Positions 4,997-57,956 of a DNA stretch of 64,000 nt are shown in pieces. The DNA is from a virus (lineage: Duplodnaviria > Caudoviricetes). The position numbers and the translations under genes were made by a program. The notes below the pieces were generated by a model that did no database searches, was not told the origin of the DNA, and saw only the letters and a list, made by a program, of their open reading frames with translations. Every line of letters begins with the position of its first letter. The first letter of the stretch is position 1. The DNA is taken from the IMG/VR virus record IMGVR_UViG_3300033066_000804, positions 404 to 64,403 of that record; one strand, 5' to 3'.

Positions 4997-5878
4997 ATGG
5001 AAACGCACACCTCCCTCCTGTCAATCACGGGATTTTTTAAAGCCGAGGCTGCCCAAGAGGGCGCCATGCGCGTCCTGTACATGCAGGCGTCCGACGAGTC
5101 CACGGACTTGCAGGGCGAGCGGTTGCTGGCGAAGTCCCTTCAGGATAGCTCCGAGCATTTCCTGCGGTACGGGAATATCGACCTGGACCATCGGTCCATT
5201 CTGCCCCCGCGCGTCCCGAACGAATCCACCTATCTGTGGGAAATCGGGCATCCGGTAGATGTTTCGTTCGTCAACGACCGGACCTTGGTCAAGGCGGTCC
5301 TGTATTCCGGCGACGGGCCTATGGCCCAAAACGCCAACATGGTCTGGGACTCACTGACCAACGTGGCGCCCCCGGTGCGCTGGTATCCCTCGGTCGGCGG
5401 CGCAGTGCTGCCGGGCGGCAAGGAAACCGCCATCGACCCGGTGACCAAGGCCAAGGTGAGCCTCATTAAGTCGGTTCGCTGGTCAAACATCGGCCTATCT
5501 CGCACCCCCGTCAATGTCTCGGTGCCCTCGGTATCGGTGATTGGCGCGGACGTTTTCGCTAAATGCCTAACCCTTGATGGGCATTTCGACCTTGCTAAAG
5601 CACTGGAAGCCGGGACCGGGACGGATATGTCCGCCCTGACCGGCGGCGCCGCCCTGGCCTGGCAATCCCTGGACCCGCACGTCCAAGCGACCTTGCCGGC
5701 CTATTCCGATGTCCGGGAAGCCTTGGCGCGGCATGTCCGCGCGAATCCTGGTGGATCTCTATCTCTGGCCAGCCTAACGGCCGAGGTGGTTCGTGTGTTC
5801 GGTGTGCCGGCGGATCCTGCGGAGAGCCTGGTACGAAAATTCTTGATAAACCTGAAATCTTCGCGGAGGAATCCATGA
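4997..5878 (+). CDS. Prohead maturation protease
   Basis: ASDESTDLQGE, GNIDLDH, PSVGG and LSRTPVN motifs; position before scaffold and capsid. Confidence 0.8.
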   Translation: METHTSLLSITGFFKAEAAQEGAMRVLYMQASDESTDLQGERLLAKSLQDSSEHFLRYGNIDLDHRSILPPRVPNESTYLWEIGHPVDVSFVNDRTLVKAVLYSGDGPMAQNANMVWDSLTNVAPPVRWYPSVGGAVLPGGKETAIDPVTKAKVSLIKSVRWSNIGLSRTPVNVSVPSVSVIGADVFAKCLTLDGHFDLAKALEAGTGTDMSALTGGAALAWQSLDPHVQATLPAYSDVREALARHVRANPGGSLSLASLTAEVVRVFGVPADPAESLVRKFLINLKSSRRNP

Positions 5879-6519
5879 GCGAATTCGATAAGTTGCTGGC
5901 GGAATTGGACGAGCTTTCCTTGGCGAAGTCTCAGACCGGCCAGATGGAAATGTTCGGTAAAGCGGACAAGCCCAGCGCCCAGAAGGGCGACGAGGACGAG
6001 GATGACGACGACGCCTGGGACAAGTTTGCCGAGGACGAGGACGAGGACGACGACGACGAGGACGAGGACGAAAAGCCCATGGGCAAGTCGTTCTCTGTGA
6101 CCCTGCCGGGCGGCGAAGAAGTCGAAGCCCTGGACGGCACCCTGCTGGTCAAGGCGCTCCGGGACGACCTGCTGTCCTCCCAGGGCGAGGTTCGTACCTC
6201 GCTGAATCAGATCGGCGAAGTCCTGACGCGCACCACCGCGATGCTCAAGTCTTTAGCTGGCGACAACGCTGCCCTGCGCGCCGAAATGGATGCGCTGGCG
6301 TCTGCCGGCCGGGGTCGCAAGTCCGCCCTGTCCGTGCATGAAAAGCCCGCGACGACTGTGGCGCCTACCCAAGTGGTCCCCTCGCGCAAGGAGATCCTGG
6401 CAAAAGCCATGGATGCCATGAACGCGGGCCGGATCTCCGGTTACGAGGTGGCCCTAGCCGAGGGCTGCCTGAATCGCGGACAAGCGATCCCGGAAGCCTT
6501 GGCGGCCCGGATCGGCTAA
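5875..6519 (+). CDS. Scaffolding protein
   Basis: Acidic D/E tract, helical, several K-S/K-A sites; lies between protease and capsid. Confidence 0.65.
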   Translation: MSEFDKLLAELDELSLAKSQTGQMEMFGKADKPSAQKGDEDEDDDDAWDKFAEDEDEDDDDEDEDEKPMGKSFSVTLPGGEEVEALDGTLLVKALRDDLLSSQGEVRTSLNQIGEVLTRTTAMLKSLAGDNAALRAEMDALASAGRGRKSALSVHEKPATTVAPTQVVPSRKEILAKAMDAMNAGRISGYEVALAEGCLNRGQAIPEALAARIG

Positions 6520-45596: not shown

Positions 45597-45916
45597 TTCG
45601 TGCGCTCTTTAAGCTGAGTCGTGATCCACTTGATCATCGACTTAGAGGATACGTTGTCGTAGCAGTCCTCACATAGAGGCCCGACTTCGCCTCGTATTAG
45701 CGAGTCTTCTTCGCTTCTCCCGGTCGGCCTTCCGCATAGAAAGCATCGTTGAATTGGTTGTGGTTCTCGGATCAGTTCATCGGCTATGCTCTCAACTTCC
45801 CCTGCGACTTCCCCCACGACTTCCTTATTCGCCACTCGATCCAGCAGTTCGCTTAATCCACCTGGGGCGAACAGTTCGGACGGTTGCGCGTCCTGAATTG
45901 GGATTATTTCATTCAT
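45593..45916 (-). CDS. Hypothetical zinc-binding protein
   Basis: CFLCG...LCEDC. Confidence 0.55.
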   Translation of the reverse strand: MNEIIPIQDAQPSELFAPGGLSELLDRVANKEVVGEVAGEVESIADELIREPQPIQRCFLCGRPTGRSEEDSLIRGEVGPLCEDCYDNVSSKSMIKWITTQLKERTK

Positions 45917-45980
45917 GTTCGTGTGCCTTAAAAGTCAATTTCCACTGTTTCTAAATTGGTACTATTTGTTTTGGATAGCC

Positions 45981-46460
45981 TCAACCATTGGATTTCCCTT
46001 GGATGTAATGCAGCACAGGGGTTTTGTTCGGTGCTGCAATTTCAGCCGGAGCCGATTTAGCGGCTTCCAAAACGAAGTGCGCTTTCCGCAAATTGTGCTC
46101 CTGTCGAGCCTTGCCGATGTCGTCCAACTCACTGGCCGGAACCATGGCGGTCAATCGAGCCGACCGACCCACTTGGCGCAACCCATGGGTCAGGCGCCCG
46201 GTCTCTTTGGTAATACGTTCAGGACTGGTCAAAATCTTGAATTTGCCGTGTTCGCGGGCAACGAACAGGTTCATTTCATTCAGAACCTGACGCCTCCAAG
46301 CGCTAGTCACCGCTTGATAGCGCGAGGTCTTCGGCACCAGGTCCGTAATGGCCATGATTTCAGCGTCTTCGATCTCCTGACCGACGGACAGGGTTTTGAA
46401 GTGCTCCATGATTTTTTTCACATCCGGTCTAGTCGGAATGCCACCTAAAAAAAGACCCAT
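45981..46460 (-). CDS. Hypothetical protein directly downstream of the pentamer array (possible accessory factor)
   Basis: RBS GAGGTG 36 nt after the array's end hairpin; SRYQAVTSAWRRQVLNE suggests a winged-helix-like fold (inference). Confidence 0.75.
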   Translation of the reverse strand: MGLFLGGIPTRPDVKKIMEHFKTLSVGQEIEDAEIMAITDLVPKTSRYQAVTSAWRRQVLNEMNLFVAREHGKFKILTSPERITKETGRLTHGLRQVGRSARLTAMVPASELDDIGKARQEHNLRKAHFVLEAAKSAPAEIAAPNKTPVLHYIQGKSNG

Positions 46461-46495
46461 CTCATTCACCTCGCCCAAGTTGATTTAGAAAATTT

Positions 46496-46802
46496 GCGCA
46501 TTGCGCCCTTGCCTTTCCAGGCCACACCAGGACCGGCCCCGCCTGCCCTGCCCCGCCCAGCCCAACATCCTGGTGTCTCCACCGCCCAGCAGCCTCATGA
46601 GAAGCCGCTAGACGCTGAATTCTTCAGCCCTTGCCTTGCCCGACCCTGCCGGCCTGGCCTCGCCGGGCCATGCCCATCCTGGCCCAACATCTGGCGTCTC
46701 CACCGCCCATGAGACTCATCGAATCCCATGGACGCTGAATTCAGCCCTCGCCATACCAAGCCGATCCTTGCCCCGCCGTGCCCGGCCAATCCCGACCGCG
46801 CC
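46496..46802 (-). ncRNA. Downstream GG(C/T/A)NN pentamer array: three tracts and two structured spacers (vrRNA-like)
   Basis: Tracts at 46748-46802, 46631-46684 and 46509-46562 (11 units each), spacers at 46685-46747 and 46563-46630, end hairpin GCGC-AAT-GCGC. Confidence 0.85.
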
Positions 46803-46817
46803 ACGGCCAAAACCTAA

Positions 46818-47486
46818 CTAAACTTCCTTAACCACTGCCGAAAACATCCCATGCGTTCCCGGTTTTTTGGGTGCGCTGGGACGCCAGTCCCCAATCCCTT
46901 TGTATTTACCGGCATAAGAAAGAATCGACTCAAGCACCGTCTTGGTGATCTGCGGATCCTGGACTGCCAACACCCCGGAGCAGGACCATTGGCGGAACAT
47001 GGGTCGAACCCGGATGTGCTTGGCGGTCCCCACTGCTGCCCGCTTCACCAACAATTCAAACCCCATGGACTCGACCGCTTTTTCATGGGCTGGGAAGCTG
47101 GACTCTTGCATTAGTGCCGTGATGGCAGACATTGGCACCTCTTTACCGGATGCCAGCAGGGGCCAATAGAGATCCTCGGGCAAAATCCCGGATTGGGATT
47201 GGGTCTTGAAGGTCTTACCAGACCGTCCGCCGGGAACCGGCACCATGGCACCGCCCTCGCGCAGTGCGACCATGATCACGTCTGCCGGAATGCAAACGCG
47301 GTCACCATCAGAATATAGGTAGCCAACCCATTTATAGGCAGGGGTTCTGTCGTCCCCATTCACCTTCACCGATTTATTCGCCGGGTCATCGGACCAAGCC
47401 TTCATTCTGTCCGCCCACTTGACGTCATCCGCATGCATTAGCAGCGGACTGACTCCGGTCAACGTGATATTGAAAAACTGCATCAT
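46818..47486 (-). CDS. Stand-alone Cas7/RAMP-like protein (Vipr-like)
   Basis: FNITLTGVSPLLMH first strand, CIPADVIMVALREGG, HIRVRPMFRQW, glycine-rich loop AGKYKGIGDWRP...GTHGMF; flanked by arrays. Confidence 0.8.
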   Translation of the reverse strand: MMQFFNITLTGVSPLLMHADDVKWADRMKAWSDDPANKSVKVNGDDRTPAYKWVGYLYSDGDRVCIPADVIMVALREGGAMVPVPGGRSGKTFKTQSQSGILPEDLYWPLLASGKEVPMSAITALMQESSFPAHEKAVESMGFELLVKRAAVGTAKHIRVRPMFRQWSCSGVLAVQDPQITKTVLESILSYAGKYKGIGDWRPSAPKKPGTHGMFSAVVKEV

Positions 47487-47499
47487 TGTTCTCCGATAA

Positions 47500-47769
47500 A
47501 AACCTTGCCTTGCCTCGCAATGCCGAGCCGATCCGATCCGAGCCTGGCCATCCTGGTGTTTCCACCGCCTAGGGTTCTCAGAGAAACCCCTAAACGCTGA
47601 ATTCAGCCCTTGCCTGGCCTAGCCGCGCCCTGCCCATCCCTGCCGAACCGGACCTTGCTGCCTTGGTGTCTCCACCGCCCATGAGACTCATCGAATCCCA
47701 TGGACGCTGAATTCAGCCCTTACCGTACCTAGCCTGGCCAATCCCTGCCTAGCCTCGCCCAACCACTCC
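47500..47769 (-). ncRNA. Upstream GG(C/T/A)NN pentamer array: three tracts and two structured spacers (vrRNA-like)
   Basis: Tracts at 47720-47769, 47610-47659 and 47505-47549; 60-nt spacers at 47660-47719 and 47550-47609. Confidence 0.85.
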
Positions 47770-47773
47770 AAAA

Positions 47774-47992
47774 TTAAAAAGGAATATCGTCAAAATACTC
47801 ATGCTGCTCACATCCAGAATCAAACCAATCCGCTGGGATTTTCTCGTTATAGAAAGCACAGAAGCTGTCTCCATCCAGATGCCCGCAAGTCGCGCACGAT
47901 GTACTCGACTTGGAATCCAACATAGCAAGCACCTTATGAAGCAGTGGTCGTAACACCGCTTTTTCTTCGCTGGTTAACTCATTCAAATTCAT
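47774..47992 (-). CDS. Small Cys-rich protein
   Basis: CATCGH...C...GCE...DDIPF. Confidence 0.7.
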   Translation of the reverse strand: MNLNELTSEEKAVLRPLLHKVLAMLDSKSSTSCATCGHLDGDSFCAFYNEKIPADWFDSGCEQHEYFDDIPF

Positions 47993-49574
47993 AGCCGACG
48001 ATCTCCGGATATTTCCCATTCTTGATGGTGATGGTGGTAGGACGCTTCACGATGTCGGGAAGAGGCAATTCGAGAGCGTCTTTAACGGTCGGCGGGACCG
48101 GGATTGCCGTGCCGACTCGCCGAATCCACCATTGCGCCGCTTTGGCCCTGGCATAGCCGTCATGGCTTAGACATACCCATTCAGATGCCACTCGCAACAT
48201 CCCATCGTAATAATCCACTCGCAATGAGGGGAGCTTTCCGATGCTCTGGTGGTGCCGGTAAAAGCAGTGAGAGACCTTGCGAGTGACTAGGCTTTTCGTA
48301 TCCGTCGAAAGCACCGGCGCATCGCTTGCCGTAGCGAAATGAGAAGGCGCGTCAGCGAACTCGAACACATGCCCGCAAGCGCAAATCCGAACCGATGTAG
48401 CAACCTTGGCGCCGCATCCTGGACAGACCTTGATAGGCGCCGCTGAACCGTCCTCTTTTGGTTTGGGGATCCAGGCTTTTACTTGGTCCACCGGCCCATG
48501 CCGGGTTGTATTGCCGGCAAAATCCAGCACCAGGCAGTCCGTTTTGCCGGGAGCGATCCGCATCCCGCGCCCCATGATCTGGACGTAAAGGCCGGGGCTT
48601 TGAGTGGGTCGCAAAACCACCAGCAGGTCTGTTGCTGGTACGTCGAATCCGGTCGTAAGCACGTTAGCGTTAACTAAAGCCCTTATACGTCCGTTTCTGT
48701 AGCTGGCAATTAGATTGTCCCGCCTGCCTTTGGGGGTTTTCCCTGTTACGCACCCAGCGGGGATCCCTCGAGCCAGCAATGCCGCTGTTACATGCTCGGC
48801 ATGGTTAACCCCGGCGCAGAAAACAAGCCATTTGCCCCGATCAGCCCCATAAGTCTCGACTTCGTCTAGGGCTGCATGAGTTACGCTGTCCTGGTCAACG
48901 GCGCGTTCTAGCTGCCCCTGGATGAATTCACCATTGCGACTTTTGACTCCCGACACATCCAACTGGGTCGTCGTGCTCTTGGTCACGAGGGGGCAGAGAA
49001 AGCCCTCTGCAATCAATTGGAGCAAGCCGATCTCATAGGCCACGTCGGAGAACAGGGCCATATCTCCGTGAGTCAATGCCCCTGTGGTGGTGCGAAAAGC
49101 CGTGGCAGTCAGGCCAACAATCCGAACGTCCGGGTTGATCTCCCTGGCGGCATCAAAAAAAACTTGGTAGCGGCTACCCGCATCGCTACCGATCAGGTGG
49201 GCCTCATCGACGAAAATCAGGTCGAATCGGCCCAGGTGCAGGGCCTTGGTAAAAACCGACTGAATCCCCGCAAAAATCACCGGGTTGAAGGCATCCTTCC
49301 GGCCAAGTCCCGCCGAATAAATCCCCAGCGGTGCTTGGGACCATACAGATTTAAGCCGGGAGGCGTTTTGCTCAATCAGTTCCTTAACGTGGGTCAGCAT
49401 CAACACCCGCTGGTCCGGCCAGGTAGCGAAGATCTCCTGAATAACAGCAGCCAAAACAACGCTCTTGCCGCTGCCTGTTGGCAACACCAACAAAGGATTC
49501 CCGTCCTTGTTCGCCCTGAACCAGTCGTACAGGGCATCAATGGCGGCTCGCTGGTGCGGATACAGGGTAATCAT
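47979..49574 (-). CDS. SF2 DEAD/DEAH helicase (RadD/YejH-like)
   Basis: PTGSGKS, VDEAH, GLTATAFR, TTGFD and QIMGRGMR motifs; C-terminal CPGC zinc finger. Confidence 0.92.
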   Translation of the reverse strand: MITLYPHQRAAIDALYDWFRANKDGNPLLVLPTGSGKSVVLAAVIQEIFATWPDQRVLMLTHVKELIEQNASRLKSVWSQAPLGIYSAGLGRKDAFNPVIFAGIQSVFTKALHLGRFDLIFVDEAHLIGSDAGSRYQVFFDAAREINPDVRIVGLTATAFRTTTGALTHGDMALFSDVAYEIGLLQLIAEGFLCPLVTKSTTTQLDVSGVKSRNGEFIQGQLERAVDQDSVTHAALDEVETYGADRGKWLVFCAGVNHAEHVTAALLARGIPAGCVTGKTPKGRRDNLIASYRNGRIRALVNANVLTTGFDVPATDLLVVLRPTQSPGLYVQIMGRGMRIAPGKTDCLVLDFAGNTTRHGPVDQVKAWIPKPKEDGSAAPIKVCPGCGAKVATSVRICACGHVFEFADAPSHFATASDAPVLSTDTKSLVTRKVSHCFYRHHQSIGKLPSLRVDYYDGMLRVASEWVCLSHDGYARAKAAQWWIRRVGTAIPVPPTVKDALELPLPDIVKRPTTITIKNGKYPEIVGYEFE

Positions 49575-57810: not shown

Positions 57811-57825
57811 GTGCCCCCAGTTTCT

Positions 57826-57897
57826 GGCGGGTGCAACGGGGGCGCCCTCGGGCGCACCGCCCCTCGGAGCGGTACTGTCATCCCCGTTGCATCCGCC
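57826..57897 (+). ncRNA. C4/P4 CI-type antisense RNA
   Basis: 16-bp closing stem, two inner hairpins; single-stranded CTGTCAT complementary to ATGACAG at 57760 and 57910. Confidence 0.75.
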
Positions 57898-57956
57898 TCC
57901 CAATTCCTTATGACAGAGGAACGAGGCGGTTCTCAAGCCTACTCGAGGATCGTTCT

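What the first reader, a model, noticed from the sequence alone, without database searches (positions are those of the whole stretch)
46563..47719. Array spacers fold into three abutting hairpins with compensatory changes
Seen: four 60-68 nt spacers (47660-47719, 47550-47609, 46685-46747, 46563-46630) share H1 GCTG-AATT-CAGC (one copy has a loop insertion, GCTGAA-GAA-TTCAGC), a long H2, and H3 GGTG-GNRA-CACC (GAGA or GAAA; one copy has CGCC, keeping a G-U pair). H2 differs in sequence but keeps pairing: GTCCATGGGATT/AGTCTCATGGGC, GTTTAGGG/CCCTAGGC, GTCTAGCGGCTTC/GAGGCTGCTGGGC. Two spacers are identical over 52 nt. The helices abut with no linker. Inference: a structured processing or capping element that cuts the transcript into unit guides, possibly cleaved by a host RNase because no Cas6 is evident.
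Basis: partly seen in the sequence, partly recalled or inferred. Interest (0 to 1): 0.8.

Follow-up and report, generated by a model that had tools for sequence, protein, structure and literature searches.

The report
Three-hairpin tails of VIPR guide RNAs
The four folded "spacers" are the structured 3' ends of guide RNAs in a phage VIPR system, a CRISPR-like silencing system first described in 2026; the kind of element is known, but this three-hairpin shape differs from the one published tail.

Summary
Four 53-57 nt elements on the minus (sense) strand each fold into three abutting hairpins. A covariance model finds 72 more copies in 32 related loci, with compensatory changes in H1 and H2 and weaker support for H3.

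The "array" is not CRISPR. The 5-nt GG(Y)NN repeats are vrRNA guides of a VIPR system (bioRxiv 10.64898/2026.04.26.720920). The 222-aa gene between them is a Vipr homologue (PDB 36pp, SUSP1 Vipr). The 159-aa gene downstream is a remote vap1 homologue.

Each element starts directly after the last repeat of an upstream array in all 72 copies. That makes it the vrRNA 3' tail. The published tail (SUSP1 clade) is a ~40-nt hairpin plus pseudoknot. This one is a different fold with a hypervariable but always paired middle helix. The same fold occurs in the cultured Pseudomonas phage LESphi2, a type II VIPR.

Only 2-7 nt separate a tail from the next array, and no ribozyme or promoter match was found between them. 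The guides are therefore probably cut from one precursor. No RNA ends could be mapped, so cleavage and its nuclease remain untested.

The scan has met VIPR loci and hairpin tails before on other DNA. Verdict: new variant of a known kind, modest interest.

The parts
47718..47772 (-). vrRNA U1 guide tract, 11 YNNGG units
   Evidence: 5-nt GG periodicity
47665..47717 (-). Tail T1: H1 47706-47717, H2 47677-47705, H3 47665-47676
   Evidence: Fold; R1 61.9 bits, E 9.5e-21
47608..47657 (-). vrRNA U2 guide tract, 10 units; 7-nt linker AAGGCAG at 47658-47664
47555..47607 (-). Tail T2: H1 47596-47607, H2 47567-47595, H3 47555-47566 (GAAA loop)
   Evidence: Three-hairpin minimum-energy fold; R1 64.2 bits
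47503..47552 (-). vrRNA U3 guide tract, 10 units (one imperfect). It has no hairpin tail and runs into the ribosome-binding site of vipr
46818..47486 (-). vipr, 222 aa, Cas7-like RAMP protein
   Evidence: PDB 36pp_D SUSP1 Vipr, E 1.7e-11; family profile E 1.9e-15 over positions 2-215; tblastn to SUSP1 25.6% identity over 91%
46746..46805 (-). vrRNA D1 guide tract, 12 units
46693..46745 (-). Tail T3: H1 46734-46745, H2 46705-46733, H3 46693-46704 (CGCC variant with a U-G pair)
   Evidence: R1 63.3 bits
46629..46688 (-). vrRNA D2 guide tract, about 12 units, one of them only 4 nt long
46572..46628 (-). Tail T4: H1 46614-46628 (3-nt loop insertion), H2 46584-46613, H3 46572-46583
   Evidence: Three-hairpin minimum-energy fold, -35.2 kcal/mol; R1 62.4 bits
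46507..46566 (-). vrRNA D3 guide tract, 12 units
46496..46506 (-). Mini-hairpin GCGC-AAU-GCGC that ends the last guide in place of a three-hairpin tail
   Evidence: The same motif ends the last array before a gene in 25 of 94 related loci
45981..46460 (-). Accessory gene, 159 aa from the ATG at 46460; remote vap1 homologue
   Evidence: Homologue present in 77 of 94 vipr loci, beside vipr in the hits inspected; hhalign against SUSP1/LESphi2 vap1 gives 95% probability, E 2.7e-8

Best explanation
The four elements are the structured 3' tails of guide RNAs (vrRNAs) in a type II-like VIPR system. The locus reads, on the minus strand: three vrRNAs, vipr, three vrRNAs, vap1-like gene.

Each internal vrRNA is a tract of 10-12 YNNGG pentamers. 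Their NN dinucleotides are the programmable code. The tract is followed at once by H1 (conserved GCUG...CAGC), H2 (11-14 pairs, free in sequence, fixed in pairing) and H3 (GGUG/GAUG stem, often with a GNRA loop).

Shown here: the identity of the protein, the repeat code, the fold, its covariation, its strand, and its obligate position after an array.

Inferred from the published SUSP1 tail: the element stays on the mature RNA, caps its 3' end, marks where the Vipr filament ends, and protects the end from degradation.

Also inferred: only 2-7 nt separate a tail from the next guide, and no promoter or ribozyme match lies between them. The three guides of each intergenic region are therefore probably made as one precursor and cut just 3' of H3 by a cellular nuclease.
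For: Protein. The 222-aa product matches SUSP1 Vipr (36pp) at E 1.7e-11. Its family profile matches at E 1.9e-15 over nearly the full length. The accessory gene family aligns with vap1.

Repeats. GG at a 5-nt period occurs only in the two intergenic regions and only on the minus strand. Guide tracts hold 10-12 units, within the published range of 9-16.

Fold and family. Model R1 finds 72 sense-strand copies in 32 of 96 vipr loci. The only antisense matches are four weak ones that overlap sense hits.

Covariation. 87% of cells pair, against 66% in shuffles and 35-54% in slid controls. All 5 H1 pairs and 11 of 12 H2 pairs have changes on both sides (RNAalifold). For H3, 80% of 45 distinct tails carry a hairpin of 4 or more pairs abutting H2, against 16% in shuffles.

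Strand. Many G-U pairs fit an RNA of the sense strand.

Position. All 72 tails follow an in-register array of 5 or more units. Eight of 72 have no array downstream.

Other phages. The same tail occurs three times in Pseudomonas phage LESphi2 (R1 52, 42 and 38 bits). Its Vipr matches SUSP1 Vipr at E 1.8e-41 and its neighbour is vap1.

Literature. vrRNAs carry a structured 3' tail that caps the RNA in cryo-EM.
Against: No RNA ends were seen. Contigs from four sludge RNA libraries cover the locus but cannot show starts, ends or strand.

The last guide of each region lacks the three-hairpin tail, so the full tail is not needed by every guide.

The structure paper says the P. fulva complexes lacked a 3' fiducial marker like the SUSP1 pseudoknot. 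If P. fulva guides carry this tail type, which I have not checked, that would allow for a flexible tail or one removed from the mature RNA.

Tail type tracks the Vipr tree only loosely.

H3 covaries weakly and is absent or degenerate in about a fifth of tails.
Confidence: 0.8

Rival explanations
1. The three hairpins are disposable punctuation. They recruit a nuclease (RNase III on H2, or RNase E, G or P at the flanks) and are cut away, so the mature guide carries little or none of the element.
For: Tails and neighbouring guides are packed 2-7 nt apart with no promoter match. H2 is constrained only in its pairing, as a nuclease substrate would be. The last guides do without H2 and H3. The P. 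fulva complexes showed no 3' marker.
Against: In SUSP1 the tail is retained and resolved in the complex. H1 abuts the last GG with no spacer, and the junction CAAGG|GCUG is conserved. Eight of 72 tails have no guide after them to be separated from. H2 is shorter than the roughly 20 pairs typical of RNase III substrates (my own knowledge, not tested here).
Confidence: 0.15
2. The element is a self-cleaving ribozyme, like the hammerhead-interspersed vrRNA arrays reported for type I and V VIPR.
For: Ribozyme-punctuated vrRNA arrays exist. The element has three helices.
Against: No Rfam family matches the two intergenic regions even at E up to 10, and none at gathering score in the window. The helices abut with no conserved unpaired core. 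The conserved bases lie inside the stems.
Confidence: 0.02
3. The element acts on DNA or on transcription. It could be an intrinsic terminator for each guide, or a recombination or cassette boundary.
For: H1 in this phage is a perfect 12-nt palindrome containing GAATTC. Variants in sludge RNA-library contigs gain or lose whole units.
Against: No U-tract follows H3, and the terminator scan finds nothing there. The palindrome is not conserved in relatives (for example GCUGUUUACAGC). G-U pairs and strand-specific model hits point to RNA.
Confidence: 0.03

Closest known systems
vrRNA 3' tail of the SUSP1-clade type II VIPR (bioRxiv 10.64898/2026.04.26.720920 and 10.64898/2026.04.26.720927; PDB 36pp)
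   Same: It is a structured element that starts directly after the last YNNGG repeat, with a G-started short hairpin abutting the final GG. It sits in a vipr + vap1 locus on the sense strand, one per guide.
   Different: The SUSP1 tail is about 40 nt, a single hairpin whose loop pairs downstream to form a pseudoknot, and is described as invariable. The tail here is 53-57 nt with three abutting hairpins. No pseudoknot was evident, though I ran no dedicated search. The middle helix differs in sequence even within one locus. Model R1 does not hit the SUSP1 locus. SUSP1 guides are spaced about 50 nt or more apart; here they are 2-7 nt apart.
VIPR locus of Pseudomonas phage vB_Pae_LESphi2 (OQ594955; genes annotated only as hypothetical). 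It is probably close to the published P. fulva type II system; that link is inferred, not checked
   Same: It has the same three-hairpin tail consensus, CAAGG|GCUG..CAGC|G..C|GGUG.., on three guides upstream of vipr.
   Different: Its Vipr is only about 29% identical to the window's and much closer to SUSP1's. Its H3 stems are 6 pairs long.
Hammerhead-interspersed and staggered vrRNA arrays (types I and V and others)
   Same: Several guides are packed into one intergenic region with punctuation between them.
   Different: No ribozyme core is present here. The guides do not overlap as they do in staggered arrays.
CRISPR repeat hairpins processed by Cas6
   Same: A conserved structured handle is attached to a variable guide.
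   Different: The guide is a gapped pentamer code, not a contiguous spacer. I ran no dedicated search for Cas6. None of the nine neighbouring proteins I scanned matched a Cas6 family.

Membership tests
VIPR system (Vipr + vrRNA + vap) | A Vipr protein (minimal RAMP/Cas7-like) is encoded in the locus | tested here: met
   36pp_D SUSP1 Vipr at E 1.7e-11; profile E 1.9e-15 over positions 2-215
VIPR system (Vipr + vrRNA + vap) | Tracts of 9-16 YNNGG units flank vipr on its own strand | tested here: met
   Six tracts of 10-12 units, on the minus strand only
VIPR system (Vipr + vrRNA + vap) | A structured tail lies directly 3' of the repeat tract | tested here: met
   Four of six tracts carry the three-hairpin tail and one carries a mini-hairpin. 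All 72 tails in the family follow an in-register array
VIPR system (Vipr + vrRNA + vap) | An accessory vap gene lies next to vipr | tested here: met
   Homologue present in 77 of 94 loci. hhalign to vap1 gives 95% probability, E 2.7e-8. Pairwise BLASTP alone was not significant
VIPR system (Vipr + vrRNA + vap) | vrRNAs are expressed as discrete RNAs of about 100 nt bound by Vipr | not testable with these tools
   Only contigs of RNA libraries were available. They cover the locus but show no ends
VIPR system (Vipr + vrRNA + vap) | The guides match natural targets under the 1-nt skip rule | tested here: inconclusive
   No score above shuffled guides in 3 Mb of held sequence. No exact match for U1, D1 or U2 in viral contigs
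SUSP1-type pseudoknot tail | About 40 nt: one hairpin whose loop pairs with downstream bases | tested here: not met
   The fold and length differ. R1 finds nothing in the SUSP1 locus
Self-cleaving ribozyme (hammerhead and others) | A conserved catalytic core that matches an Rfam model | tested here: not met
   No match in 46400-47850 at E up to 10, apart from one chance snoRNA hit
Intrinsic terminator | A GC-rich hairpin followed by a U-tract | tested here: not met
   The scan finds none at the tails. H3 is followed by A/G-rich linkers
tRNA or tRNA-like punctuation | A cloverleaf recognised by ARAGORN | tested here: not met
   No tRNA or tmRNA in the window

The most novel reading that the evidence does not exclude
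The three-hairpin tail may be a portable, widely compatible module rather than a passive cap. Two observations lead there.

First, its sequence consensus is shared by VIPR systems whose Vipr proteins are only 25-30% identical, while the closer SUSP1 system uses another tail. This could mean the tail is read by a conserved cellular nuclease or a shared Vipr surface. That would allow Cas6-free and ribozyme-free processing of multi-guide precursors, and cross-loading of guides between rival phages.

Second, H2 is paired but hypervariable. This could reflect selection to escape rival guides, which are reported to target the repeat-tail junction of vrRNA genes (10.64898/2026.10.15.759431).
Probability: 0.2. 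Interest if true: 0.55.

Novelty: new variant of a known kind. Interest (0 to 1): 0.35.

Why it matters
VIPR guides need a defined 3' end. The only tail whose fold is described in the papers I could read is the SUSP1 pseudoknot.

This report adds three things:
- A second, covariation-supported tail architecture, with a working covariance model, that helps annotate vrRNA boundaries in this Vipr clade. R1 hit 32 of the 96 vipr loci searched; the clade has more than 1,200 homologues in the protein database.
- A tractable host-phage pair for testing it, P. aeruginosa and LESphi2.
- A sharper open question: how tightly packed guides are separated without Cas6 or a ribozyme.

For engineering, it separates the constant parts (H1, the helix junctions, the 5' strand of H3) from the parts that can be changed freely (the body of H2).

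Tried and rejected
- **Early ideas for the 5-nt GG periodicity.** I considered a TRAP-like ring-protein binding site, an R-loop or origin element, G-quadruplexes, Chi-like arrays and a centromere. I dropped them once the Vipr homology and the VIPR papers explained the repeats.
- **Alternative fold.** In this fold the 3' strand of H1 pairs with the 5' strand of H3 to lengthen H2. It is the minimum-energy structure for copies 1 and 3. One position is a conserved mismatch in 45 of 47 distinct sequences, and only the outermost pair varies. I rejected it in favour of H1 and H3.
- **Rfam.** Nothing matched in the intergenic regions.
- **Natural targets.** No score above shuffled controls in 3 Mb of held loci. 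No exact match for three guides in viral contigs.
- **RNA evidence.** Four metatranscriptome runs hold the locus, but only as contigs, so they say nothing about ends or expression.
- **Promoter scan.** No sigma-70-like site in 45900-48100. This is a weak negative.
- **P. fulva guide sequences.** I could not obtain them. No supplementary file with sequences is held.
- **Near-identity searches.** blastn against the phage collection found nothing.

Full report
**What is in the sequence**

Genes from 42 to 52 kb lie on the minus strand. They form a phage replication module: a Sak4-like ATPase, a DUF669 protein, a Cas4-like nuclease and a helicase. The window is most of a 64.4-kb IMG/VR virus record.

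Two intergenic regions, 47487-47773 and 46479-46817, flank a 222-aa gene. Read on the minus strand, each region has the same layout: pentamer tract, folded element, pentamer tract, folded element, pentamer tract.

GG at a strict 5-nt period occurs nowhere else in the window and on no other strand.

- H1 is GCUG-AAUU-CAGC, with a 3-nt loop insertion in copy 4.
- H2 has 13-14 pairs and three different sequences.
- H3 is GGUG-GAGA/GAAA-CACC, with one CGCC variant that keeps a U-G pair.
- The helices abut without linkers, and copies 1 and 3 are identical over 53 nt.

Folding energies lie 3 to 6 standard deviations below those of shuffles.

**What the array is**

In these, a Cas7-like Vipr protein polymerises on vrRNAs built from 9-16 YNNGG units. 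The NN dinucleotides read DNA with a 1-nt skip, and each vrRNA ends in a structured 3' tail.

I tested whether this locus belongs to that family.
- The 222-aa protein matches the SUSP1 Vipr chain of PDB 36pp at E 1.7e-11.
- A profile of 28 relatives matches the same chain at E 1.9e-15 over positions 2-215.
- tblastn finds SUSP1 and many Felix O1-like, mycobacterial and Gordonia phages.
- The downstream 159-aa gene has homologues in 77 of 94 vipr loci, beside vipr in the hits I inspected.
- Its family aligns with vap1 of SUSP1 and LESphi2 at 95% probability, E 2.7e-8. Pairwise BLASTP alone was not significant.

The locus is therefore a type II-like VIPR: three vrRNAs, vipr, three vrRNAs, vap1-like gene.

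**What the folded elements are**

I fetched 80 viral and 14 genomic loci that encode Vipr relatives at 41-56% identity. Many of them carry 55-65 nt gaps between arrays with the same architecture.

From 26 diverse copies I built covariance model R1. It finds 72 copies in 32 of 96 loci, all on the vipr strand. The only antisense hits are four weak ones that overlap sense hits.

On the resulting alignment:
- 87% of cells pair, against 66% in column shuffles and 35-54% when partners are slid by 1-3 columns.
- All 5 H1 pairs and 11 of 12 H2 pairs show changes on both sides. RNAalifold on the MAFFT alignment agrees for H1 and H2.
- That alignment was fitted to the model, so it leans towards the model's structure. 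The slid controls and the independent RNAalifold run limit this concern.

H3 comes in 4-pair and 5-pair versions that the alignment mixes, so I scored it separately. Eighty percent of 45 distinct tails have a hairpin of 4 or more pairs starting at the base after H2, against 16% of shuffles. The stems are GGUG/CACC, GGUGC/GCACC, GAUGC/GCAUC and GGUGG/CCACC. About half the loops are GNRA. H3 is thus supported, but by few independent compensatory events.

Many G-U pairs and the one-strand hits point to an RNA of the sense strand.

**Which guide the element belongs to**

Every one of the 72 tails begins exactly after the final GG of an in-register tract of 5 or more units. Twelve units is the most common length. 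Eight tails have nothing repeat-like after them.

The junction CAAGG|GCUG is conserved, whereas the linker after H3 varies in length and sequence. The element is therefore the 3' tail of the upstream guide, as in SUSP1.

**How it differs from the published tail**

The SUSP1 tails, read from the phage record, are about 40 nt. Each has one hairpin whose loop pairs with downstream bases. They are described as invariable with a pseudoknot. R1 finds nothing in the SUSP1 locus, and only one hit in 98 unrelated GGCNN loci.

The same three-hairpin tail does occur three times upstream of vipr in the cultured Pseudomonas phage LESphi2. Its Vipr is close to SUSP1's (E 1.8e-41) and its neighbour is a clear vap1. 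Type II VIPR therefore uses at least two tail folds.

The published P. fulva system has the same order (vrRNA1-3, vipr, vap1). Its authors note that its complexes lacked a 3' fiducial marker like the SUSP1 pseudoknot. I infer, but could not check, that P. fulva guides carry this tail.

None of the four VIPR-related papers I could search describes a three-hairpin tail in its text. Figures are not held.

On a Vipr tree the tail label is clustered: 14 changes against 27 in shuffles. It is still patchy, with at least 6 changes forced by well-supported branches. Other relatives use a single short hairpin or staggered arrays.

**Mechanism**

Shown: the identity, fold, strand and position of the element.

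Inferred from SUSP1: the tail is retained, caps the 3' end and bounds the Vipr filament.

Inferred from layout: the linkers are only 2-7 nt. No sigma-70-like promoter, terminator or ribozyme match lies between units. Each trio of guides is therefore probably one precursor cut just 3' of H3. The nuclease is unknown.

The last guide of each region lacks the full tail. D3 ends in a GCGC-AAU-GCGC mini-hairpin, a motif that ends the last array before a gene in 25 of 94 relatives. U3 runs straight into the vipr ribosome-binding site. This suggests that a short hairpin abutting the last GG is the minimal cap, and that H2 and H3 add something needed mainly between guides.

**What I could not settle**

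RNA ends remain unknown. The phage is present in wastewater and activated-sludge runs, including four metatranscriptomes, but these are held as contigs. No natural targets were found for the guides.

**Verdict**

The element is the vrRNA 3' tail of a known system, in a fold not described in the text of the papers I could read. It is a new variant of a known kind, of modest interest.

Noticed in passing
window 57820-57903 (+): Rfam C4 antisense RNA (RF01695), 63.7 bits against a gathering score of 45. This is the P1/P7-type immunity RNA.
   Followed up: no
window 46496-46506 (-); for example L164:1965, L130:2942, L007:2463: The last guide tract before a gene ends in a GCGC-N3-5-GCGC mini-hairpin instead of the three-hairpin tail. 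This holds in 25 of 94 vipr loci, so tail type depends on position within a locus.
   Followed up: partly
window 47627-47746 and 47570-47747; L001:4420-4580: Contigs from three sludge RNA-library runs hold a form that skips 120 nt, about the length of one guide plus tail. Two of those runs also hold a form with about 280 other letters in place of 177. The sister phage L001 has a terminator-like hairpin and about 100 nt inserted between guides. Guide content therefore varies between strains.
   Followed up: partly
L223:1080-1500 (Pseudomonas phage vB_Pae_LESphi2, OQ594955, record positions about 5476-5900): This cultured P. aeruginosa prophage carries an unannotated type II VIPR: three vrRNAs, vipr (P21_9) and vap1 (P21_8). 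It lies next to the CI repressor and a gene annotated as a sigma factor.
   Followed up: partly
L014:6300-7015; L046 (minus strand) about 874-2432; L086: Some viral contigs hold very long GGCNN tracts. L014 has 135 units in 715 nt with no folded punctuation, just upstream of RusA-like and helicase genes.
   Followed up: no
alignment A3, columns 22-26 and 68-72: H1 and H3 are near copies of each other with the second base pair flipped. This leaves a conserved G-G or G-A clash if their strands cross-pair (45 of 47 distinct sequences). It may guard against misfolding.
   Followed up: partly
alignments A2 and A3, columns 1-5: The last repeat before the tail is CAAGG in most copies. Its NN is therefore largely fixed as AA and is probably part of the tail junction, not of the guide code.
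   Followed up: no
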